Source: Promethearchaeota archaeon
GTDB lineage: Archaea; Asgardarchaeota; Lokiarchaeia; Sigyniarchaeales; SOKP01
Direction of reading: 5' to 3'
Length of the DNA: 64,000 nt
Assembly: GCA_016840085.1 (NCBI GenBank)
Contig: JAEOTA010000081.1
Span: forward strand, 32,001-96,000
This document shows, piece after piece, positions 15,696-32,854 of this stretch; within the stretch, counting starts at the first letter, position 1, and every line of letters begins with the position of its first letter. The notes beneath the pieces were generated by a model. It did not search any database, was not told the origin of the DNA, and saw nothing but the letters and a program-made list of their open reading frames with translations. The position numbers and the translations under genes are program-made.

Positions 15696-16757
15696 ATGAA
15701 AATCTCAGAATTAATAAAATTATTATCAAAAGCAGCAGAGGGTAAGGACTCAATCGCTGAAGGAGCTGTAGGATCTAATTTCTTTGGCTTTGTTTTCAGG
15801 GATGTAGTTTTTGTGGAGGACCTCCTCGATCTAGGTTATTTAAGTCAATTTTGTAATGTTGGAACTATGCCGATGTTTCTACATAATTTCAGCGGGGACC
15901 CAGACGCTTTTTTTAAATATTCTGACTTAAGTTTTGATATTTCTTGTATTGGATCATTAAAGACTCTGGTTCCCACAATTAAGTTTTGTATGGATGATTT
16001 ATTATTTGAGGTCTGGATGTTAGTAAGGACGCCAAAAGGGGAGGTCTTTCCTGCTTCTTTTTACTATGGAAAATCACGTCTAGCCATTGGAGGTTGGAAT
16101 ATTAATACTATAGAATTATTTCATAAGATTAAATTTTATTTACCTAAGGAGCTTAACGAGTTTACAACAGTCAATCCTTTTGATTTCACGGTCGAGGAGC
16201 GAGACCATTTAGCAAGTTCTTTAGAATTAGCCCTTCAAAAAGTTAAACCATCTGATTTTGAAGTGACATTTAGAGACGAATATGGAGATATTTTTTTAGC
16301 TATTCAGGAGGGAATACCTGTTTTTAAAAGAATTAATGATGAAGATTATTGGCCTATTGAAATTATAGACCAAGGATCTTGGAGGTATTTAGATCTTTTT
16401 GAAGAATTAATTAAGGATCAGCTAACCTTAGATGATAAAAATAGATTAGAAGCAGATCTAACTTCTTTAGAATTTAGAACGCTCAGAAAAAATTTAATTA
16501 TGAAGTGTTACGATAAATTAATTGATCTTGCTTATCAACAGGGTTCTCGTCTTGCGTTTCAAGTGTTAGGAAAGTTACTTCTAAATGAGGGGATAAAGAT
16601 TTTCGATGATCTTAGAAGACTAATTCTAGATAATTCACGATGGATAGACGAACGCGACAAATTGAAGATGAAAAAAGATAGATGTAAAAGAAGAAATAAT
16701 TTAATTAATTTTAGAACAAGATTATTAAAGAACAAGGAGGATATGATTGCACAATAA
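15696..16757 (+). CDS. Hypothetical protein
   Basis: 353-aa ORF, SD AGGAG upstream. Confidence 0.7.
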   Translation: MKISELIKLLSKAAEGKDSIAEGAVGSNFFGFVFRDVVFVEDLLDLGYLSQFCNVGTMPMFLHNFSGDPDAFFKYSDLSFDISCIGSLKTLVPTIKFCMDDLLFEVWMLVRTPKGEVFPASFYYGKSRLAIGGWNINTIELFHKIKFYLPKELNEFTTVNPFDFTVEERDHLASSLELALQKVKPSDFEVTFRDEYGDIFLAIQEGIPVFKRINDEDYWPIEIIDQGSWRYLDLFEELIKDQLTLDDKNRLEADLTSLEFRTLRKNLIMKCYDKLIDLAYQQGSRLAFQVLGKLLLNEGIKIFDDLRRLILDNSRWIDERDKLKMKKDRCKRRNNLINFRTRLLKNKEDMIAQ

Positions 16758-19854: not shown

Positions 19855-20047
19855 TTTCTTATCTATCTCTGTTATTTTGTTCTATTAATTATAGTTTAAT
19901 TTAAGATATACATCTTGTCATTAATTTGTTAAATTAAAACTCAATAAATAAATAATGGTGGCTAAAATAATAATTTTTTGAAGAAAAATTCCTTTTTCTT
20001 CTAATAATTAAATCTTAAAATTAGTAAAAATGGTCCCTCCCCCCGGA

Positions 20048-20076
20048 ATCTAGCTAGATCTGAAGTAGATCCGTAT
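20048..20076 (-). other. tRNA intron in the T-loop, position 59/60 (29 nt)
   Basis: Relaxed BHB: CTCG/CTAG helix, bulges AA|A and AT|T; inner hairpin GGATCT/AGATCT; removal restores a 7-nt T-loop. Confidence 0.85.
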
Positions 20077-20098
20077 TTCGAGCCGGGGACCGCTCGGT

Positions 20099-20153
20099 TT
20101 CAATTTCGGCTGACGTAACTTCATTAGCTACCAGCTTTAGTACGCGATATTAT
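20099..20153 (-). other. tRNA intron at canonical position 37/38 (55 nt)
   Basis: Relaxed BHB: CTGT/ATTG helix, bulges AG|A and AA|A; internal hairpin GCTGG-TAGCT...AGTTAC-GTCAGC. Confidence 0.9.
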
Positions 20154-20472
20154 CTACAGCCGAGCACTCTGACCACTGAGTTAGGGAGGGGATGTGTTTT
20201 AAAATTATATAATAATTTAATTAATTTATTTTTTATGATTTTCAATTTAGAGTAAATAATAACAAGAATTATTTTATTCTATACTTTTTTTAATACTCAT
20301 AAATAACCCTCTTTTGTTTAAGAAAACTTATTAAACAAAAAATTTTCCTATATTATTAACATAAAAATTTCCAATAAAAGATCGCAAAATACTTTTGTTG
20401 TGAAAAATTTAATTAATTAATGAATAGTTTTATAAAATTAAACTAATATTTTTTTAAGAAAGGTGATGAATA

Positions 20473-21012
20473 ATTAGAGAAGAGACTGATTATACAGAAT
20501 CTATTGAGAGTTATAAAAACGATCCAAACGTTATTCTAGAACCATGGGGTAGAAGTATAGATCATTTACGATTAACCATTATTGGTAAAAAAGGAACACC
20601 TTATGCTGATGGAAAGTTCGTTTTTGAAATCAAGTTCCCTGAGAACTACCCGTTCGCTCCGCCCTACGCTTACGCAGTTACTTTAATGTGGCACCCTAAC
20701 ATTGATTCATCTATTCCACCAGGGAAATTGAATATATGTTTAGATTTAATTAATCCAGATTTAGTAGGTAAAGTTGATGCGAGTACAGGAGCAAGCGGAT
20801 GGACACCTTCAAAAACTCTAACTAATATTATTGAAGCACTGAAGGGCATGATGCATATAGAGTTATGTGAATATCTCGCATAACGTGTAAAGCCGCCCTT
20901 CTTTAATCCTGGCGATCCCCTTAATCATGAAGCAGGTGAACAGTATTTTCGTGCTTTAAAGAAATTTGAAGCTAAAGCTAAAAGCTGGACAGCCAAATAT
21001 GCCATCGACTAG
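20473..21012 (+). CDS. Ubiquitin-conjugating enzyme E2; exons 20473-20860 and 20891-21012; 169 aa if spliced; probable ATT start
   Basis: GTPYADGKF, FPENYPFAPP, WHPNI, catalytic ICLDLI, WTPS, and after the insert NPGDPLNHEAG..Y......F...AKSWTAKYA; SD AAGGTGAT at 20460-20467. Confidence 0.92.
20861..20890 (+). other. Putative BHB mRNA intron in E2 (30 nt, in-frame TAA)
   Basis: Central helix ATAT/GTGT, bulges AG|A and AA|A, 9-bp inner stem GTTATGTGA/TCGCATAAC, outer GC/GC plus GAAGGGC/GCCCTTC; splice gives HIE-PPFFNP. Confidence 0.85.
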
Positions 21013-23363: not shown

Positions 23364-24977
23364 TCACATAAAAGTGATTATAACATTATATTTTTTAATC
23401 TCTGATTCTGCTAGTGCTTTTCCCAAAGGAGTTAACATAATTATATCATTTGATTTTATTTTTACTGAAGTTAACTTAATATCAGGATCTTTTAGTGAAG
23501 GCATGTACGGATTCCAATAAATCTCTTTAGTCATTGGATTAGTAATCATCCAAAATTCTGGATCTAGTTTGTGTCCTGAAACTTCCATTGCGTTAAATAT
23601 ATAACCAATATCAGCGTCAAAAGGCACTACAATTTGTACATTTTCTTCACCTTCAATCTTTCCACATGCTAAACAATCATCTCTTTTTATGATGTTTAGA
23701 TGATCAAATTGACCGTAAATGCCATTGTAATTCACATAGGGAGGATCCATCGGAGATCCAATATTTCTGCTGTTAACTCGAAATAATAGTTTGAGTGCTT
23801 CTTGAGATTGGATACTTGCAATTACGGAACTAACTGTTTGGATTGCTGCTATTTTATTTCCGAGAATATTTTCCATTTCTTCAAATTTGTAATCTGGACC
23901 AAAAGTGTTTCTGATATTATTTTTCCATTCTTCAATCTCTGCTTCAGTTAATGTATCTCTTTTCTCTGGAGATACATTTTCATTAAATACTCGCTCTCTT
24001 AATTGTTCTAACTCCTCTTGAGCTAATTCTTTTAGTTTAAGAACGTCAACATTTAAATTAAGATCAGGTTTATGTCCATATTTTTTTTCAAAATTAACTT
24101 CAGCTTTTATAACACAATGATTTCTATTACGGGGTAACCCTTTTAACGTGCACGCTGCAACTAATTTATCGTCAGCTGGAGGAATTGGAACTAAGCATCT
24201 ATAACATGGAGTTTGATCTAAAAGTTCGGGGGCATATTTCCAATCAAAAACCATTTCAATCTCTCTTCTGAATTTTTCTTTTAATGGATTAATTTTTTCT
24301 TCATTTAACCGTTCTATTTCTTCTTCTAGGTCTTCAATTCTTTTCTGGGCTTGAAAATATTCAGGGTATTCCATTTCAGTAATTTCCCAAAGTCTTGCTT
24401 CTACTAAATTATCGATCTCTCTTTCTTTATCTTTATATTGTAAACCAGAACCCTCAGGGATTACAATTTGAACATGACCTTCAAAAGCATGTGTAGCTCC
24501 TTCGACCATAGGTTTTTTTAGTCTAAGACAGATTTTATTTAAGTCCAATCTAGCATTAAAATTATCTAATGCTCCTATAACTACATCTGCTTCTTCATAT
24601 ACAGCCATAGGTAATTTTTGAAGCTTTTCAAAATAAAAATCAACTTTTAGAAAAAGATTCATTTCTTTCAATCGTTCTGCTGCCACTTCAGCTTTAGGTC
24701 GTCCCTCATCTCCCGGTTTAAATAGCATTTGTCTAGATAAATTTGAGGTTTCAATAGTATCTAAATCCACTAAGATCAGTTTACCTATACCCATCAGAGC
24801 GAAATCTTTTGCGATTTCACAGCCCTTCACGAAAATTATTGTTTATAATATTCCTAATGCGCCTACTCCGATGATTAAAATACATCCCTTATTTATAACA
24901 TCTTGATCCCAGCCATCAATTAATTGTTGTCGGGCATACATGCGCGACTTAACAAAATCTTCTACTTTTTCAGTCAT
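23364..24977 (-). CDS. Ubiquitin-activating enzyme E1 (Uba2/Uba3-like architecture); exons 24977-24855 and 24824-23364; 527 aa if spliced
   Basis: YARQ...GW.Q..I....ILIIGVGAL|GCEIAK, DLDTIETSNLSRQMLF, KAEVAA, LDNFNAR, CYRC, catalytic ACTL...PRN..HC, CLAC, C-terminal ubiquitin-fold-like domain. Confidence 0.92.
24825..24854 (-). other. Putative BHB-like mRNA intron in E1 (30 nt, in-frame TAA)
   Basis: Central helix GCAT/GTGA (one G-A mismatch), bulges TA|G and AG|G, inner stem GAATATTAT/ATAATTTTC, outer GGC/GCT; splice restores GVGALGCE. Confidence 0.8.
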
Positions 24978-25074: not shown

Positions 25075-26460
25075 CCCTTTATGAAATCAAAATTCTATTC
25101 TTTATTTTAACTATGAAATCGTAATAGAATATGGGTGTAACCCTACACCCTCTATCCCATCTGCCAATATGGCTTTTGGGACTGCTTTTTTAAGGATATT
25201 ATATGCACCATTTACATCCGCATTGATAATAATCCCTTCTTGACTGTGATATAAACCCCTACAAATACGCTTTCCTTGAAATTTTTCATGTTTTTTTATA
25301 GATTCATTATCTAAGAAACTACATCTCGAAGTGAAAGATTCTGGCTCTAATATAACATCAATCTCGATTAACTCTGATTTATATTTAATTTGGGACATAA
25401 ATTTGGAAAAAGGAATTTGGACAAAGTTTTGGTTATTACGCTTTCCAATTTTTATTTTATGTTTCCAAGATTTATTATAACCAATGACTATCGTTCCAAA
25501 ATTGTGGTTAATGCAATAATTTATCACTGCTCTCGAAATTTTATGGAAGATATCATTAATTTTATTGTTTCTTTTCCGGGTTAGCCATTGCATTCTTTTT
25601 GTTTCAGAACCGATCCCTTGCTTATCCTTTTTGCTTTTATATCTAGCAAGTTGTTTGTTGTAGAATTGATTAATAGATTTCACAACACCACCTTTAATAA
25701 CAACAGGTTGTAACCCCGCATTATTTACCATAGTTATGATATTGTTCAACCCCAAATCAATCCCAATAACTCTCTTTTTATCTAAATTCAAATTTTTTAC
25801 TTCCTTTTTATAAATAATTTCTAAGATATAATATAATCCTTTTGGAATAATTCTGACGTGGTGTAATTTACTTTTTATACGGGTTTTAACGGGAGGTAAT
25901 TGAGTTTTTTTCGGGAAATAAAGAAAAGCTCCCTTGATCATGCATTGTTGATTCGTAAAAATAATCATACACTCGCCATCTTTCTTTTTGTAACGTGGCG
26001 GTTTTGGAGATCCTAAGTAATTCTCTGGCTGCTTTTTGTGGTTTTTAAGAGATTGGAAAAATGATTTCCAATTTTTATCCACGAGTTTTAAAATTTGCTG
26101 AGCAGTTTGTGAAGGGAGCTTTTTATATGGTTCTTTCTCTTTTAGCATATACCATAAGTCGTAATATCTCAACCAATTACCTAAATAAAAAAACTCTTGT
26201 CTCACATAATAATTGGCAAGATTATAGAGATTTTTAGATAAATGACATAGATAAGATAATTGTGGAGTGTTCTTTAATTGAATCTGTTCTGTTAACCTCA
26301 TTTCCATAATATTGAAGGAGAATTTCAGATTTAAAAGAAAAGAGACTGAAGATTTATATTTGATAAAAGAATTTAAAAAAATTAAGGGAAATTAAGAATT
26401 CTCTAGAGATATAAAAAGTATATAGAAAATGATACGTATTAAGCCTATAAAAAAGTATAA
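25075..26460 (-). mobile_element. Solo-tnpB (IS1341-like) element without tnpA; boundaries approximate
   Basis: tnpB alone; 3' hairpin GGGTGTA-N4-TACACCC (25133-25150); direct repeats TATAAAAA(A)GTATA at 26410 and 26446. Confidence 0.6.
25111..26307 (-). CDS. tnpB: TnpB RNA-guided endonuclease (IS200/IS605/IS607 superfamily), rearranged RuvC type
   Basis: SKNLYNLANY, GIDLGLNN (RuvC-I), IVIGYNKSWK, EPESFTSRC, NADVNGAYNI (RuvC-III). Confidence 0.95.
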   Translation of the reverse strand: MEMRLTEQIQLKNTPQLSYLCHLSKNLYNLANYYVRQEFFYLGNWLRYYDLWYMLKEKEPYKKLPSQTAQQILKLVDKNWKSFFQSLKNHKKQPENYLGSPKPPRYKKKDGECMIIFTNQQCMIKGAFLYFPKKTQLPPVKTRIKSKLHHVRIIPKGLYYILEIIYKKEVKNLNLDKKRVIGIDLGLNNIITMVNNAGLQPVVIKGGVVKSINQFYNKQLARYKSKKDKQGIGSETKRMQWLTRKRNNKINDIFHKISRAVINYCINHNFGTIVIGYNKSWKHKIKIGKRNNQNFVQIPFSKFMSQIKYKSELIEIDVILEPESFTSRCSFLDNESIKKHEKFQGKRICRGLYHSQEGIIINADVNGAYNILKKAVPKAILADGIEGVGLHPYSITIS

Positions 26461-26485: not shown

Positions 26486-29400
26486 TTAAGTTTTTTTACT
26501 TTTATCAGCTTTTTTAATCATTTTTTTAAGATTATCAATTTCTTCCCTTTCTTTAGCTTGTTTTAATCTTTTTTGTTCTTTCTTCTTTTCCATTTCCTTT
26601 TTCTCAATCTCATCTATAAGTTCTTGTTTAATTTTAATCAAATCACTCATTTTCTTACTGAATTCTTTTGCTTCATCTTTGATTTGTTCTTTTTGCTTTT
26701 TTTCTTTTAATTTTGCTTTACTCCGTCCCTCTTCAATCATTTTCATAACTTTATCTGTATCAATACTAACTTCACTAATTGCTTGTTTCATTTCGGCATC
26801 TTTAGATTCTCTTCTACTTTTTTCTAAGGACCTTTGTTTTTCTAATTGCTTTTGAATTTCATTAATTCGTGATTCCTCGGCTTTAACTCTTTCTTCCAAA
26901 ATCTTAGCATTTTTTATTTCGGTTTCAATATATTTTATCTCTTCTTTCCATCCAATTTCTTTAAATTTAGAAATAGCTGTATTGAACTTTTCATAAGCAT
27001 TTTCAAAATCATGATACGCTGCTAATCTCTTTCCATCATCAATATATTTTAATCCTTCATCTCTAATTTGATCAAAATGTTTCTTTTTAACAAATAATTC
27101 TCTATATTGTTTTTCTTGTCCACGCTTCAGTTGTTCTTGTTCCAATCTTTTCCTTCTTACCTCTTCTTGAAACTTTTCATATTCTATTTGTCTTTGTATT
27201 CGAGCCTCTTCCTCTAACTTCTTCTTTTTAATATAATTAACTTGTTCTTGTTGTAAATCTTTGATTAATGCATTTAAATTATTTATTTCTGGTTCCCATC
27301 CTATATTTTCAGCTAAAATATTTCTTGCTTGGACATATAAAGAAATTGCATTATTAAAATCTGGATTAAGTTGTTTCAAGTATTTTCCGGCTTCGTCGAG
27401 CAAAGAATAAGCAGATTCCCTGACAGTCATTTGTTCTTGAATCATTCTTTCCCTTTGTTTTTGAGCTAATAATTGTGCTCTTTTCTTTTCTTCTTCTTGC
27501 CTTTTTCTTTCATCTATAAGAATTTTTAATGCTTTTTCTTCTTCTAATTTCTCAAATTCTTTCTGAAATTTTAATTCTTCTTGTTCTACTTCTTGCTTCT
27601 TTAATTTATTAACCTTAAGAATCATATTATTAATAGAATCTGTTGGAAACTGTAATTCATTCAAGATTAATCCTGCTTTTCTATATCTTTCAATAGCGTT
27701 TTCATAATTCGATGCTTTTAGAAATTTCTCTGCATCATCAAGGATTTTAAATGCAGATTCTTTCCTCTTCTCAAGTCTAGCTTTCAATTCTTCTTTCTCC
27801 TGGATCTCGATTTGCTTATTCTGTAATCTTTCTCTTTCGTTTTTAAAAAAAGTAGATATTTGTTCTTCAAACTCCCACACCTCTCTTTCTCTCTGTATAC
27901 TGAGTTCTAAATCCTTTTGTCTTTGTAATTGATGGTCTTTTTTCTTCTCTCGGACTTTTTGAATTGTTTCTCTAATTGCTTCTGTTGGGAATGAAATTTC
28001 GTTTAAAATTAATTCTGCTGTATGATAATATTCAAGTGCTTTATTATATCGCGCTTGATTCATATATATCTCTGCTTCATCTAGTATACTAAAAGCCTCA
28101 TCTTTTCTCTTTTCCATATAAGCACGATGCTTTTTTTGTTTTTCAAGTTCATTCTGCTGACTCTTCATTCTCAATTCATTAATTTTTATGCTTTCAGCTA
28201 TTTTTTGTTGAAAATCAAATTGTTCACGCTCTTTCTGAAGTTTAGATTCTAACTCCATTTGCTTTGTAGTTATTTCTTCCCTACTTTTCATTTGAACCTT
28301 ATAAATCATATCTCTAATCAAATTTGTTGGAAATCCTATTTCACTTAAAATTAATTCTGCTTTATGATACATTTCAGTTGCTTTATCATATTCAGCTTGC
28401 TTTAACAACTTTTCAGCAAGATCCATAATCTCAAAGGCTTCTATTTTACGTGATTCCATTTTCTGTAATAAATTTTCGCGTTCTTGTATTTTTAATTCTT
28501 TTAATTCTAATCTTTTCTTTTCTCTTAACATACTTTCAGAGATCTTTGATTGAAATTGTTGTTGTTCTTGTTGTTGGTTAATCTTCAATTCTTGTTCTAT
28601 TTCTTTTTGTTTTTCTAAATCTCTCTTTCTCTTTTCAATTGTATTTATCGTATTAGTTAATAACTTCAGATATTCACGGGTCCAACCTATTTCAGTTAAT
28701 ATATGAATCGCATGTTGATAACTTACTAATGCATTATCAAAATCTTTGTGTTTAACTGATTCATACCCATTATTAATTAAATTAAAAGCTTCTTGTTGCT
28801 TGACTAAATTTTGAGCACTTATGAGTTTTTGACTTTTTAAATTTTCTTCTTCTTCTATTGCCATTGCTCTTTCTTTCTTTCTGTATAATTTTATTTGTTC
28901 CATAAACTCATAATTCGCTTTTTCCTTATCTATTGATTCTTGTAGTAATTTTGCCTTTTGTATATCATCTTCTCTCTTTTTTTTCATGATATTCTGAATT
29001 GCATTTTCAAGAATGGGTATTTCATCGTCCCATTGAATTTGGGCAAAATTGTTTGCAACATCTCGATATATATCAATTGACTCTTCAAATCTTCCTTTCG
29101 AGAGTAAATCTTGAGCTTTATCCAATAATTTAAAACCCTCTTCTCTTTTTTTCTCTCTATATACTAATTCTTCTTCTTTTTTTCTTAATTTTATCTCTCT
29201 TTGTCTTAATTTTTCACGTTGAGTTTTCATTTCTTCTGATATAAGTTCATGAAATAATTTTTCTTCCTTTTCTCGCTCAAGACTTGCTTTTAATTCCATC
29301 TGTTTTTTAACTTCCATCTTATATTTTTTATTCTCAACCTCATTAATAGATCTTTGAATTAAATCAATTTCATCATGCCATTGAATCTCTGTAAAAATAT

Positions 29401-32400
29401 CCGTAGCGTTATAGTATACTGTGATTGCTTTATCAAAATCATTTTGTTCAATATGTTTTTGTGCTTCTTCTAAAAGTTTGAAAGCTTCTTCTTTTCTCTT
29501 TTCAGTTATTAATCTAATTTCTTCCAGTTTTCTCAGTTCCTCTTGTTTTTCTTTCATTTTAAGCTGTTCTAATTTCATTTTTTCTGTTATCTGTTGTTGG
29601 AATAGGCGCTCTTCTTGTTCTCTTCTAAGATTTAATTCGAGTTCTTTTAATTTATTCAAATCATCATCTCTCTTTTTCTCCTGGATTTTTTGAATCATTT
29701 CTCTGATAATAGTTGTAGGAAAAAAAATTTCATTGAAAATTAATTCTGAATTACGATAAAGTTCAATTGATTTATCATATTCACTTTGATTTAATAACTC
29801 TTCAGCTTGATCCATAATCTCAAATGCTTCTATTTTACGTTTTTTCATTTTTTGTAACAAATCTTCACGTTTTTGAACTTCAATTACCTTAGAGTTTAAT
29901 CTTTCTTTCTCTTTTCGTATATAGTTTGAAATTTTATTTTGAAATTGTTCCTCTTCTTTTTGACGGTTTAATGCAGCTTCAAATTCTATCTGCTTTACCT
30001 TTTCCTTTCTTTCTTTGCTTTCTTGAATAGATTGAATTGTGTCTTTTAGTAATTTTAAATAATCTTCTCGCCACCCTATTCCTTTTAAGATATTTATTGC
30101 ATTTTCATAATTTTCTATAGCTTTCGCGAAGTTTTCTTCTTTGAGAATATTTTCGGCTTCTTCAATAATATTAAATGCTCTTTCTTGTTCAACTAAATTT
30201 TGGGCTGAAATTTTTTTCTGTTTTTCAAGTATTTTTTGCTCTTTTAATGCTTCTACTTTTTCTCTTTCTCTTTGAAGTAGAATCTTGTTCATAAAAGCTT
30301 TATCAACAGTTTCTTTTTCAATTGCCTTTTGTAATAATTTTTGTTTATAGAGTTCATTCTCTCTCTTTTTCTCTTTTATATCCTCTATTGTAGTTTGAAT
30401 AATTGGAATTTCTTCTGTCCATTGAATTTGAGCAAAGATATTGGCTACATCATAATATATTTCAAGAGTATTATCAAACTTTCCAAAAGAAAGGAAATTT
30501 TGAGCTTTTTCTAGCAAATCAAATGCTTCATTCTTTTTATTTGCTTGATAGGCTCTTAAATTCTCTTTTTCACTTAATGCAATTTCCTTTTCTTTCAATC
30601 TTTCACGTTGAGCTTTCATTTCTCTAGTGATGAGCTCTTGAAACCTTTTTTCTTCCTTTTCATGCTCAAAATCAGCTTGAATTTTCAATTGTTTTTGTAA
30701 TTCGGCCTCTTTTTTCTGATTTTCAATTTCTATAATAGAATTTTGAATTAAGCTTATTTCGTTTTGCCAATTCGCATCTGCAAAAAAATTGATAGCATAT
30801 TGCAATATTTCAATAGCTTTATCAAAATAACCTTGTTTTAAATTATCCTGTGATTCCTCTAATAATTTAAAACCTGATTTTCTTCTTTCTTCACGATATT
30901 GTAATTCTTTTTCCCGTCCTCTTAATTCAATTTCTTGTTTTTTCAGTTTTTCTCTTTCTTGTTTTAAATATTTTGTAATTTGCTTTTGAAAATCTTCTTC
31001 TTTTTTTTCTCTTTCTAAAGTTTCTTGCATCTTTTTTTGTCTTAAAATCTTTTGATCACGTTTTAGTTCTTCAACTTGATGTATAGAATTTTCAATCAAA
31101 GGAATTTCCTCAGTCCATCGTATTTCAGCAAAAATATTGCCTGCATTTTGGTACTCCTCGATTGCATTATTATATTCACCTCTTTTAACGAAACTTAATG
31201 CTGAATCTAGAAATTCAAAAGCCTTTTTCCTCCGCTCCTTAAAATATTTTACTTCTTCCTCCTTTTCCTTTAATATGATCTCTTTTTTCTTTAAATGTTC
31301 ACGCTCTTTATTTAATTGAGTAGCAATTTGCTTCTGAAAATCAATTTCAGCTTCTTCCCTTTTTTCCAAACGTTTTTGGTCTTCATATTGCTTCTTGAGT
31401 CGAGAATCTTTTATCTTCTCTATATTTAATATTGTATTCTTAATTGTATTAATGTAAGTTTCCCACCCTGTTCCTAAATCTTCAAGAATTACCAACCCTT
31501 CTTTATATTCATTGATAGCTCTTTCAAAGTTTTTTTCTTTTAAAATTTCATCTGCTTTATCTAAAATTTTAAAGAGATCCTTCTCTTTTTCTGCATAATC
31601 TCTTTTTTTTAATTCAAATTCTTCCCTTTTATTCTCTAAATCTTTAGCAGATTCTATTGCTTGCTTCATTTCCTTTAAATAAATAGATTCTTGAACTCTA
31701 AATAATTCTCTTTCTCGTTTTTCTTTAAGACCCTCAGTTTTTTTCTCTCTTTCTTGTTTTTCCTTTATCCCATTTATTAAATTAATCACTGGTTGAATAT
31801 AAGAATCCCATTCTATTGATTTGAGGAGCTGAATCGCTTCTTCAAGTTTCTCGATTGCGTGATTATAATCTTTTTCTCTTTCAAACTTCTTTCCTATATC
31901 AATTAAATTGAAAGCTTTTATTTGTACTTGCTCTTCTATTCTCTTCTTTTCTTCAAACTCAATAAGTTTTTTTCTTTGTAAATCTGCTTCTGAAGTTAAA
32001 GCTTCTGATTCTCCCTCAATTTTACTAGATACCATTGAAATAGCTTGTTTTTGTTGAGTTTGAAAATTTTCAATATGCTCTTTATCTTTTCTAAGTTTTT
32101 CAATAATAGCTAAAATATTCTGAGTTTGGGCAATCCAACCTATAGAATTTAATAATTGGACTGCTTCTTTATAATTATTTATAGCGTTATCAAATTTCTT
32201 TTCCTTTTCAAATATCTTGGCTTTATCAATAAGAGAAAAAGCTTCATTTTGTACTTCTTCTTCACGTCTCTTTTGTTCTCTATATCTAGCAATCGTTTCT
32301 GCTTTTTCTGGAGTAGATTTTTCTCCAAACATTCCAACAATTTGAGGTGATTGTTCTACTTGCTGTTGTGAGATTTGTTCTGAAGATATTTTCTCTTGTT

Positions 32401-32854
32401 GTTGTTTTAATTGAAATTCTTGTTGTTGCTTAATATTATTTGCGAGTTTTTTTATTTTTACTCTCAGATTTTCTAATTGTACTTCAGGCCAACCCGATTG
32501 GGCTAATAAATTAATAGCTGACATGTATTGCTGAATAGCATCTTCATAAAAACCATTAGATTCTAACTCTTTTGCTCCTTCTAAAAGTGAAAAAGCTTGA
32601 TCTTGTACTTGTTCAATTTGAGCCTGGATCTGAGTATGTTCATAAAATTTTTCTTGTTTAAGAAAATTTTTTAATTCTTCTATTCTTTCATATATATCTT
32701 GAATTCTATGAGTTAAAATTCCGCTTTGCTTTAGGTATTTAGCAGCTTTTTGATAATGGGATATTGCCTTTTCTGCATTTTTTTCCTCTTCAAAATTTTG
32801 CGCAAGTTCTAAAAATTTTAAGGCTTCTTGAGCCAATTCGTCTGGATTTTGCAT
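26486..32854 (-). CDS. Giant helical repeat protein (~18 units of TPR/MIT-like hairpin plus charged coiled coil)
   Basis: Recurring AF.(L/I)(L/I)(D/E).A ... AI..Y..A..I...I.W about every 115 aa. Confidence 0.85.
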   Translation of the reverse strand: MQNPDELAQEALKFLELAQNFEEEKNAEKAISHYQKAAKYLKQSGILTHRIQDIYERIEELKNFLKQEKFYEHTQIQAQIEQVQDQAFSLLEGAKELESNGFYEDAIQQYMSAINLLAQSGWPEVQLENLRVKIKKLANNIKQQQEFQLKQQQEKISSEQISQQQVEQSPQIVGMFGEKSTPEKAETIARYREQKRREEEVQNEAFSLIDKAKIFEKEKKFDNAINNYKEAVQLLNSIGWIAQTQNILAIIEKLRKDKEHIENFQTQQKQAISMVSSKIEGESEALTSEADLQRKKLIEFEEKKRIEEQVQIKAFNLIDIGKKFEREKDYNHAIEKLEEAIQLLKSIEWDSYIQPVINLINGIKEKQEREKKTEGLKEKRERELFRVQESIYLKEMKQAIESAKDLENKREEFELKKRDYAEKEKDLFKILDKADEILKEKNFERAINEYKEGLVILEDLGTGWETYINTIKNTILNIEKIKDSRLKKQYEDQKRLEKREEAEIDFQKQIATQLNKEREHLKKKEIILKEKEEEVKYFKERRKKAFEFLDSALSFVKRGEYNNAIEEYQNAGNIFAEIRWTEEIPLIENSIHQVEELKRDQKILRQKKMQETLEREKKEEDFQKQITKYLKQEREKLKKQEIELRGREKELQYREERRKSGFKLLEESQDNLKQGYFDKAIEILQYAINFFADANWQNEISLIQNSIIEIENQKKEAELQKQLKIQADFEHEKEEKRFQELITREMKAQRERLKEKEIALSEKENLRAYQANKKNEAFDLLEKAQNFLSFGKFDNTLEIYYDVANIFAQIQWTEEIPIIQTTIEDIKEKKRENELYKQKLLQKAIEKETVDKAFMNKILLQREREKVEALKEQKILEKQKKISAQNLVEQERAFNIIEEAENILKEENFAKAIENYENAINILKGIGWREDYLKLLKDTIQSIQESKERKEKVKQIEFEAALNRQKEEEQFQNKISNYIRKEKERLNSKVIEVQKREDLLQKMKKRKIEAFEIMDQAEELLNQSEYDKSIELYRNSELIFNEIFFPTTIIREMIQKIQEKKRDDDLNKLKELELNLRREQEERLFQQQITEKMKLEQLKMKEKQEELRKLEEIRLITEKRKEEAFKLLEEAQKHIEQNDFDKAITVYYNATDIFTEIQWHDEIDLIQRSINEVENKKYKMEVKKQMELKASLEREKEEKLFHELISEEMKTQREKLRQREIKLRKKEEELVYREKKREEGFKLLDKAQDLLSKGRFEESIDIYRDVANNFAQIQWDDEIPILENAIQNIMKKKREDDIQKAKLLQESIDKEKANYEFMEQIKLYRKKERAMAIEEEENLKSQKLISAQNLVKQQEAFNLINNGYESVKHKDFDNALVSYQHAIHILTEIGWTREYLKLLTNTINTIEKRKRDLEKQKEIEQELKINQQQEQQQFQSKISESMLREKKRLELKELKIQERENLLQKMESRKIEAFEIMDLAEKLLKQAEYDKATEMYHKAELILSEIGFPTNLIRDMIYKVQMKSREEITTKQMELESKLQKEREQFDFQQKIAESIKINELRMKSQQNELEKQKKHRAYMEKRKDEAFSILDEAEIYMNQARYNKALEYYHTAELILNEISFPTEAIRETIQKVREKKKDHQLQRQKDLELSIQREREVWEFEEQISTFFKNERERLQNKQIEIQEKEELKARLEKRKESAFKILDDAEKFLKASNYENAIERYRKAGLILNELQFPTDSINNMILKVNKLKKQEVEQEELKFQKEFEKLEEEKALKILIDERKRQEEEKKRAQLLAQKQRERMIQEQMTVRESAYSLLDEAGKYLKQLNPDFNNAISLYVQARNILAENIGWEPEINNLNALIKDLQQEQVNYIKKKKLEEEARIQRQIEYEKFQEEVRRKRLEQEQLKRGQEKQYRELFVKKKHFDQIRDEGLKYIDDGKRLAAYHDFENAYEKFNTAISKFKEIGWKEEIKYIETEIKNAKILEERVKAEESRINEIQKQLEKQRSLEKSRRESKDAEMKQAISEVSIDTDKVMKMIEEGRSKAKLKEKKQKEQIKDEAKEFSKKMSDLIKIKQELIDEIEKKEMEKKKEQKRLKQAKEREEIDNLKKMIKKADKSKKT

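What the first reader, a model, noticed from the sequence alone, without database searches (positions are those of the whole stretch)
20841..20901. Near-canonical BHB intron splitting the ubiquitin E2 gene
The ORF track stops at ...MHIELCEYLA* (TAA 20881), yet the typical E2 C-terminus (NPGDPLNHEAG...AKSWTAKYA) follows in the same frame. The RNA folds as outer stems GAAGGGC/GCCCTTC and GC/GC, central 4-bp helix ATAT(20855-58)/GTGT(20885-88), 3-nt bulges AG|A and AA|A, and a 9-bp inner stem with a 5-nt loop. Removing 20861-20890 gives ATA GAG CCG (I-E-P). The two bulges are identical to those of the neighbouring tRNA-Tyr anticodon intron. The unspliced product would keep the catalytic Cys but lose the last two helices.
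Basis: partly seen in the sequence, partly recalled or inferred. Interest (0 to 1): 0.93.

Follow-up and report, generated by a model that had tools for sequence, protein, structure and literature searches.

The report
tRNA-type intron in Asgard ubiquitin enzyme
The gene for a ubiquitin-conjugating enzyme (E2) of an uncultured Asgard archaeon is broken by a 30-base insert shaped like the introns archaea cut out of tRNAs, and comparison with about 130 related genomes shows it is one of many such introns in ordinary protein genes, whereas the papers I could search confirm this kind of splicing inside only one archaeal protein gene (cbf5).

Summary
Observation confirmed. The 30-nt insert at 20861-20890 carries an in-frame TAA and folds as a bulge-helix-bulge (BHB). 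Cutting after the second base of each bulge restores the motif of intronless orthologs (MH[VIMY]EPPFFNP).

Thirteen distinct alleles from other Promethearchaeia (Loki) genomes have 29-32-nt inserts at the same junction. Their central helix pairs 50/52 times with compensatory changes. Exon wobble bases keep a full 7-bp outer helix in 10/12 intron alleles versus 5/76 intronless ones. Exon 2 stays under purifying selection. The 29- and 32-nt versions exclude readthrough.

It is not special to ubiquitin. A motif-free comparison found seven such inserts in 851 genes of this genome (E1, EF-2 twice, RpoN, AMP phosphorylase), and E2 orthologs have six intron positions. E2 and EF-2 inserts occurred in one family only; none was seen in a sample of cultured MK-D1.

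Most likely an EndA/RtcB-spliced mRNA intron (0.92), patchily gained and lost rather than a regulatory switch. I found no spliced RNA for this gene, and the catalytic EndA subunit is missing from this assembly, probably in a gap. The scan has noted the same phenomenon on other Asgard DNA.

The parts
20462..20466 (+). Shine-Dalgarno-like GGTGA, 6 nt before the inferred start
   Evidence: sequence; conserved in the genus
20473..20860 (+). E2 exon 1; inferred ATT start codon at 20473 (ATC/ATT in this genus, ATG/TTG/GTG at the same codon in most other genera)
   Evidence: Pfam UQ_con 7e-21
20737..20739 (+). catalytic Cys89 codon (HPN...C motif aligned to Ubc1/Ubc4)
20841..20847 (+). outer exon helix, 5' arm (pairs with 20895-20901)
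20853..20854 (+). proximal exon pairs (with 20892-20893)
20855..20858 (+). central 4-bp helix, exon strand (pairs with 20885-20888)
   Evidence: 50/52 pairs in 13 alleles, with compensatory changes
20859..20861 (+). 5' bulge; predicted cut between 20860 and 20861
20861..20890 (+). 30-nt BHB intron in codon 130, phase 1
   Evidence: absent from intronless orthologs at this junction
20862..20884 (+). intron hairpin, 9 bp plus 5-nt loop (-8.7 kcal/mol); holds the in-frame TAA at 20881-20883
20885..20888 (+). central helix, intron strand
20889..20891 (+). 3' bulge (AAA in 13/13 alleles); predicted cut between 20890 and 20891
20891..21012 (+). E2 exon 2 (last two helices, to TAG)
   Evidence: 8 synonymous versus 1 non-synonymous difference from the nearest intronless allele
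20895..20901 (+). outer exon helix, 3' arm
20031..20190 (-). tRNA-Tyr gene with a 55-nt anticodon intron (20099-20153) and a 29-nt T-loop BHB intron (20048-20076); missed by ARAGORN and Rfam
23364..24977 (-). E1 (ThiF family) gene, also interrupted
24825..24854 (-). 30-nt BHB-like intron in the E1 GxGxxG motif (central helix 3/4 with a conserved G-A; in-frame TAA)

Best explanation
The insert is a tRNA-type intron in the E2 mRNA. The transcript folds so that four exon bases pair with four intron bases between two 3-nt bulges, held by a 9-bp intron hairpin on one side and a 7-bp exon-exon helix on the other. The two-subunit splicing endonuclease EndA cuts after the second base of each bulge and RtcB joins the exons, giving a full 169-aa E2. 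Unspliced message gives a 136-aa product without the last two helices. SHOWN: the insert boundaries, restoration of the frame, covariation of the helices and selection on exon 2. INFERRED: the enzymes and the splicing reaction itself, from cbf5 and tRNA biochemistry. INFERRED with less confidence: these introns are tolerated, near-neutral elements of fairly fixed size (28-32 nt) that come and go at conserved codons. The Lys-Gly...Pro-Phe codons around this site are already partly complementary, which may make it an easy place to keep one.
For: Intronless orthologs read straight through the predicted junction. Thirteen alleles have inserts of 29, 30 or 32 nt at the same junction; 264/286 predicted pairs are kept; the central helix pairs 50/52 in register versus 3/52 and 2/52 when slid by one base; A-U/G-C and U-A/C-G/U-G swaps occur; the 3' bulge is AAA in 13/13. 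The outer exon helix is 7/7 in 10/12 intron alleles versus 5/76 intronless; 4/4 versus 6/78 in the first set, Fisher p=1.2e-4 if counted as independent. Exon 2 is dominated by synonymous changes in the intron alleles. Motif-free census: 7 frame-breaking inserts of 30-31 nt in 851 genes, all BHB-shaped, while in-frame indels were not (null 4.5e-4 to 3.4e-3 each). EF-2: 22/22 stop-bearing inserts have a 4/4 central helix, at five positions. RtcB and the structural EndA subunit are in this genome; both EndA subunits are in four relatives. Precedent: cbf5 introns of 16-44 nt (PMC2738675).
Against: No RNA-derived spliced sequence was found for this gene. The catalytic EndA subunit is not in this assembly, although most of its neighbouring genes are also missing, which points to an assembly gap. 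The BHB conformer is 0-3 kcal/mol above the predicted minimum-energy fold. An intrinsic genome scan found little excess of BHB geometry over decoy geometries, so shape alone is not proof and the case rests on comparison with relatives.
Confidence: 0.92

Rival explanations
1. A hairpin or MITE-like insertion has inactivated the gene (pseudogene), or the cell lives with a truncated E2.
For: In-frame stop; most relatives lack the insert; more distant E2 paralogs exist in relatives.
Against: Exon 2 shows 8 synonymous versus 1 non-synonymous difference here, and a similar pattern in most other intron alleles. No second close copy of this ortholog was found in the assembly. The same kind of insert breaks EF-2 and RpoN. 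There is no target-site duplication, and the insert pairs with exon sequence in BHB register.
Confidence: 0.025
2. The insert is removed from DNA (precise, phase-variable excision) rather than from RNA.
For: Close relatives lack it precisely, and its presence is patchy on the tree.
Against: The conserved features are those of an RNA substrate: a U-G pair in 13/13 alleles at one central position, 3-nt bulges, and exon wobble bases keeping an outer helix. There are no direct repeats. The same geometry occurs in tRNA introns.
Confidence: 0.02
3. Translational recoding (stop readthrough, frameshift or bypass), or a split two-chain E2.
For: The 30-nt version keeps the frame; a stop-free in-frame 30-nt insert exists at another E2 site (L316).
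Against: Same-site alleles are 29 and 32 nt long, which would need three different recoding events. Other inserts split GxGxxG, GTPase G1 and CxxC motifs.
Confidence: 0.015
4. Add-on to the best explanation: the E1 and E2 introns form a dedicated splicing-controlled switch for the ubiquitin cascade.
For: Both genes, 4 kb apart, carry 30-nt stop-bearing inserts in this genome; unspliced products would lack essential parts.
Against: The E1 insert is in G000, G024, G076, G033 and G018, but the last four have intronless E2. E2 inserts occupy six positions and are absent from about 85% of the family. Unrelated genes carry the same kind of insert.
Confidence: 0.1

Closest known systems
cbf5 pre-mRNA intron of Desulfurococcales/Sulfolobales (Watanabe 2002; Yokobori 2009, PMC2738675)
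   Same: Short BHB intron (16-44 nt there, 28-32 here) inside a coding sequence at a conserved codon; cuts between bulge positions 2 and 3; lineages with a two-subunit EndA; precise losses in some lineages.
   Different: cbf5 is one gene, one site and one ancient gain, confirmed by cDNA. Here there are many unrelated genes, at least six sites in E2 and five in EF-2, a patchy distribution within genera, narrow size and shape, an Asgard host, and no cDNA from my session.
Non-canonical tRNA introns of Asgard archaea (bioRxiv 10.64898/2026.10.13.758758; PMC11291895)
   Same: Same phylum, BHB boundaries, repeated gains, unknown route of arrival; the neighbouring tRNA-Tyr T-loop intron has the same size and hairpin shape.
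   Different: Those papers treat tRNA genes only. 'mRNA' and 'cbf5' do not occur in the preprint's main text.
Haloferax HVO_1309 5' UTR BHB intron (PMC7714728)
   Same: EndA acting on an mRNA.
   Different: Untranslated region; it does not interrupt a reading frame.
HAC1/XBP1 non-spliceosomal mRNA splicing in eukaryotes (from my own knowledge, not tested)
   Same: An mRNA is cut by an endonuclease and joined by a tRNA ligase to restore a protein.
   Different: Ire1 cuts stem-loops in a regulated stress response; there is no BHB, and nothing here shows regulation.

Membership tests
Archaeal BHB (EndA-type) intron | 4-bp central helix between exon and intron | tested here: met
   4/4 here (two U-G); 50/52 across 13 alleles with compensatory changes
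Archaeal BHB (EndA-type) intron | two 3-nt bulges on opposite strands, with flanking helices | tested here: met
   the conformer is about 3 kcal/mol above the minimum-energy fold
Archaeal BHB (EndA-type) intron | cuts after bulge position 2 regenerate the uninterrupted gene | tested here: met
   matches intronless orthologs for 29-, 30- and 32-nt alleles
Archaeal BHB (EndA-type) intron | host encodes EndA and RtcB | tested here: inconclusive
   RtcB and the structural subunit are present; the catalytic subunit is absent from this assembly along with most of its neighbours, and present in G024, G006, G084 and G050
Archaeal BHB (EndA-type) intron | spliced RNA or cleavage by EndA demonstrated | not testable with these tools
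   indirect searches for a spliced contig found none
cbf5 intron proper | lies in cbf5 at the catalytic Asp codon | tested here: not met
   host gene is UQ_con/E2
Group I/II or spliceosomal intron | ribozyme core or GU-AG ends | tested here: not met
   30 nt, no Rfam match in the window, ends are A...AA
Ubiquitin-conjugating enzyme E2 (UBC fold) | HPN motif, catalytic Cys, conserved Trp, C-terminal helices | tested here: met
   PF00179 7e-21; the intronless ortholog aligns end to end with yeast Ubc1 (1fxt, E 1.4e-18); complete only after splicing

The most novel reading that the evidence does not exclude
One family of Lokiarchaeia carries a standing, mobile population of about 30-nt endonuclease-spliced mRNA introns that move between lineages at the same codon without any encoded homing protein. 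Hints: near-identical intron hairpins (0.87-0.91) occur in hosts whose synonymous sites are saturated (0.44-0.47), and this allele's flanking wobble bases match distant intron-bearing alleles (7-8 of 9) better than its closest intronless relative (5 of 9). That would be a living example of intron spread through protein genes, without a spliceosome, in close relatives of eukaryotes.
Probability: 0.35. Interest if true: 0.92.

Novelty: new variant of a known kind. Interest (0 to 1): 0.8.

Why it matters
In the papers I could search, splicing inside an archaeal coding sequence is confirmed for cbf5 only, and for Asgard archaea only tRNA introns are described. Routine tRNA-type splicing of mRNAs for E2, E1, EF-2 and RNA polymerase subunit N would have three consequences. 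(1) mRNA introns can spread in archaeal relatives of eukaryotes without a spliceosome or nucleus. (2) Gene catalogues of these genomes are systematically wrong: the truncated E2 products are already deposited as 136-139-aa proteins, which affects counts of eukaryotic signature proteins. (3) The open question of how BHB introns arrive becomes easier to test, because coding exons give exact boundaries, synonymous clocks and many allelic pairs with and without the intron.

Tried and rejected
ARAGORN and Rfam found nothing in the window; the tRNA-Tyr was read by hand.

Three intrinsic genome-wide BHB scans gave about as many hits for decoy bulge sizes as for 3+3. They were used only for leads, not as evidence or as a count. 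The first attempt timed out.

The search for a spliced transcript failed. A junction pattern in metagenome contigs returned one intronless genomic allele. Proteins matching spliced products came from divergent genomic alleles; the one quantified was 74-77% identical in DNA.

The intron has no close copy elsewhere in the genome, and eleven mRNA inserts of this genome are unrelated to each other (mean identity 0.43), so copying within the genome is not supported.

No frame-breaking insert was found in 155 comparable genes of G050 (0.8-Mb sample). Its chromosome length, 4,324,194 bp, equals that of cultured MK-D1 (PMC11316595).

The E2 exon tree cannot separate repeated gain from repeated loss (11 changes, at least 6 forced; four long-branch outgroups left out). 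The uniform 30-nt length in EF-2 is partly an artefact of picking in-frame matches with stops. Searches were input slips; the pair count was done instead. No structure or complex prediction was needed.

Full report
1. What is in the sequence. The E2 frame runs from an inferred ATT start at 20473, six bases after a GGTGA site, to TAA at 20881-20883; the normal E2 C-terminus continues in frame to TAG at 21010-21012. Exon 1 matches Pfam UQ_con (7e-21). The intronless ortholog aligns end to end with yeast Ubc1, which places the catalytic Cys at residue 89 and the last two helices after the break. The region folds better than 200 of 200 shuffles (z -3.68). The BHB conformer is about 3 kcal/mol less stable than the predicted minimum, which uses another register for the central bases.

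2. Host. The nearest orthologs (87-98% identical) lie mostly in records titled Promethearchaeota/Promethearchaeia, that is Lokiarchaeia. G050, from another family of the same order, has the chromosome length of Promethearchaeum syntrophicum MK-D1.

3. Orthologs. Most read MH[VIMY]E[PA]PFFNP with no insert. Of 114 genomes of the host family with a match, 16 have an interrupted E2 (14 resolved as BHB inserts, two not resolved); none of 20 genomes from other families does. Adding metagenome contigs gave 13 distinct alleles with an insert in codon 130, phase 1, of 29, 30 or 32 nt. Across them 264 of 286 predicted pairs hold. The central helix pairs 50/52 in register, and 3/52 and 2/52 when slid by one base; slides of two give 38 and 29 because the strands alternate purine and pyrimidine. 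Position 3 is A-U in 6 alleles and G-C in 7; position 2 is C-G, U-A or U-G; the first intron pair is G-C, A-U or U-A; the 3' bulge is always AAA. Exon wobble positions follow the structure too: the 7-bp outer helix is complete in 10 of 12 intron alleles but in only 5 of 76 intronless ones. The alleles are related, so these counts overstate independence, but the first four fell in four separate places on the tree. Exon 2 is under purifying selection: 8 synonymous versus 1 non-synonymous difference from the nearest intronless allele here, and 10/2, 13/2, 16/0 and 22/2 in others; the most distant comparison gave 10/9.

4. It is one of many. E2 orthologs also carry BHB inserts at codons 58, 65, 75, 127 and 146; some genes have three. 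The neighbouring E1 gene has a 30-nt insert in its GxGxxG motif (24825-24854, minus strand), shared with four other genomes, with a compensatory A-U to G-C change in the central helix. A census that did not use the motif (proteins from 1.6 Mb of G006 aligned to this genome) covered 851 genes. It found seven frame-breaking inserts of 30-31 nt: E2, E1, EF-2 twice, an AMP/thymidine phosphorylase-like gene, an RpoN-like gene and one unnamed gene (names for the phosphorylase and RpoN are my reading of the motifs). Five have a 4/4 and two a 3/4 central helix; in-frame indels lacked the shape; the reverse comparison found two inserts in G006. The chance of this geometry at a random site is 4.5e-4 to 3.4e-3. 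The N-terminal part of EF-2 holds stops in 26 of 124 genomes of the family and in 0 of 25 others. All 22 inserts examined have a 4/4 central helix, at five positions. The adjacent tRNA-Tyr has a 29-nt T-loop intron of the same build, present in some relatives and absent in others.

5. Machinery. RtcB is present. Only one EndA subunit is in this assembly, and it lacks the catalytic motif. Four relatives have both subunits. Most genes on either side of the catalytic subunit in G006 also have no match in this assembly, which suggests a gap rather than a loss. The Asgard tRNA preprint reports the two-subunit form in 44 of 60 genomes.

6. Mechanism. Shown: boundaries, frame restoration, covariation, selection on exon 2. 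Inferred from cbf5 and tRNA work: EndA cuts both bulges and RtcB ligates. Without splicing, the product is 136 aa and lacks the last two helices. Pseudogene, recoding and DNA excision are each unlikely (see rivals). A dedicated ubiquitin switch is not favoured, because E1 and E2 inserts rarely co-occur and unrelated core genes carry the same elements. History is unresolved. The exon tree needs 11 changes for 16 intron rows, at least 6 forced by strong branches. Same-site hairpins resemble each other more (mean 0.59) than they resemble other sites (0.43). One pair from separate, well-supported branches of that tree is 0.91 identical while synonymous sites are at 0.47. This allele's flanking wobble bases match distant intron alleles at 7-8 of 9 and its closest intronless relative at 5 of 9. 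Lateral exchange with short co-converted flanks fits these data, but so does selection for the outer helix plus repeated precise loss. Inserts of this genome are not copies of one another, in line with the tRNA preprint's negative result on copying.

7. Relation to what is known. It works like the cbf5 intron (PMC2738675) and meets the structural tests for a BHB intron; the enzymatic test could not be run. A 2020 paper names cbf5 as the only earlier mRNA case and adds a Haloferax 5' UTR (PMC7714728). The 2009 paper says introns in other protein genes had been predicted but not confirmed. My literature searches found no report of Asgard mRNA introns, though the library omits most subscription papers. 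Earlier notes of this scan describe the same phenomenon in other Asgard genomes, some citing RNA evidence that I did not check. I found the E1 and EF-2 inserts before reading those notes.

8. Verdict. A real feature, most likely an endonuclease-spliced mRNA intron (0.92). It is a new variant of a known kind: a mechanism confirmed in one archaeal coding gene, here apparently routine across many genes of an Asgard family. Interest 0.8.

Noticed in passing
window 20473-20475 (+): The E2 appears to start at ATT. The genus keeps ATC/ATT at the codon where most other genera have ATG, TTG or GTG, with GGTGA 6-7 nt upstream. Annotators start it at the GTG of that site or at Met72.
   Followed up: partly
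window 24825-24854 (-): 30-nt BHB-like intron in the E1 GxGxxG motif, shared by G024, G076, G033 and G018; conserved G-A mismatch in the central helix.
   Followed up: yes
window 20031-20190 (-): tRNA-Tyr with two introns (55 nt anticodon, 29 nt T-loop). Some relatives add a third 30-nt insert in the variable region or lack the T-loop one; this allele has a 6-nt extension at the 3' end of the anticodon intron.
   Followed up: partly
G000:C4:16144-16173 and 16273-16302 (-), locus L147: Two 30-nt BHB inserts in the EF-2 GTPase motifs; EF-2 inserts occur at five positions across the family.
   Followed up: yes
G000:C24:121176-121207(-), C9:138211-138240(-), C69:52786-52816(-), C32:24483-24512(+), C49:147228-147258(-), C19:6018-6047(-), C88:13630-13659(-): Further 30-32-nt BHB-like inserts in a 4Fe-4S protein, an AMP/thymidine phosphorylase-like gene, RpoN, an unnamed gene, purA, a ThiS-like ubiquitin homologue just before its Gly-Gly, and an unnamed gene. 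Three are confirmed by comparison; the others rest on restored motifs.
   Followed up: partly
L316 and L323 (E2 codon 75); P0098 and P0105 (codon 127): Some E2 inserts are in frame without a stop and are annotated as longer 179-191-aa proteins; the codon-75 ones keep a full BHB.
   Followed up: partly
window 20737-20800 (+): The E2 has a loop about 13 residues longer than Ubc1/Ubc4 after the catalytic Cys, where Cdc34/Ube2G have their acidic loop (the family comparison is from memory and earlier notes).
   Followed up: no
window 26486-32854 (-): 2122-aa repetitive helical protein co-oriented with and upstream of E1; an IS200/IS605-like transposase-family ORF (25111-26307, by my reading) lies between them.
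   Followed up: no
G000 whole assembly: The block holding the catalytic EndA subunit and most neighbouring genes in G006 has no match in this 98.8%-complete assembly.
   Followed up: partly
G006 sample, blocks B2 129379-129406 (+) and B3 189461-189490 (-): BHB inserts of 28 and 30 nt in a uL11-like ribosomal protein gene and a small zinc-ribbon gene.
   Followed up: no
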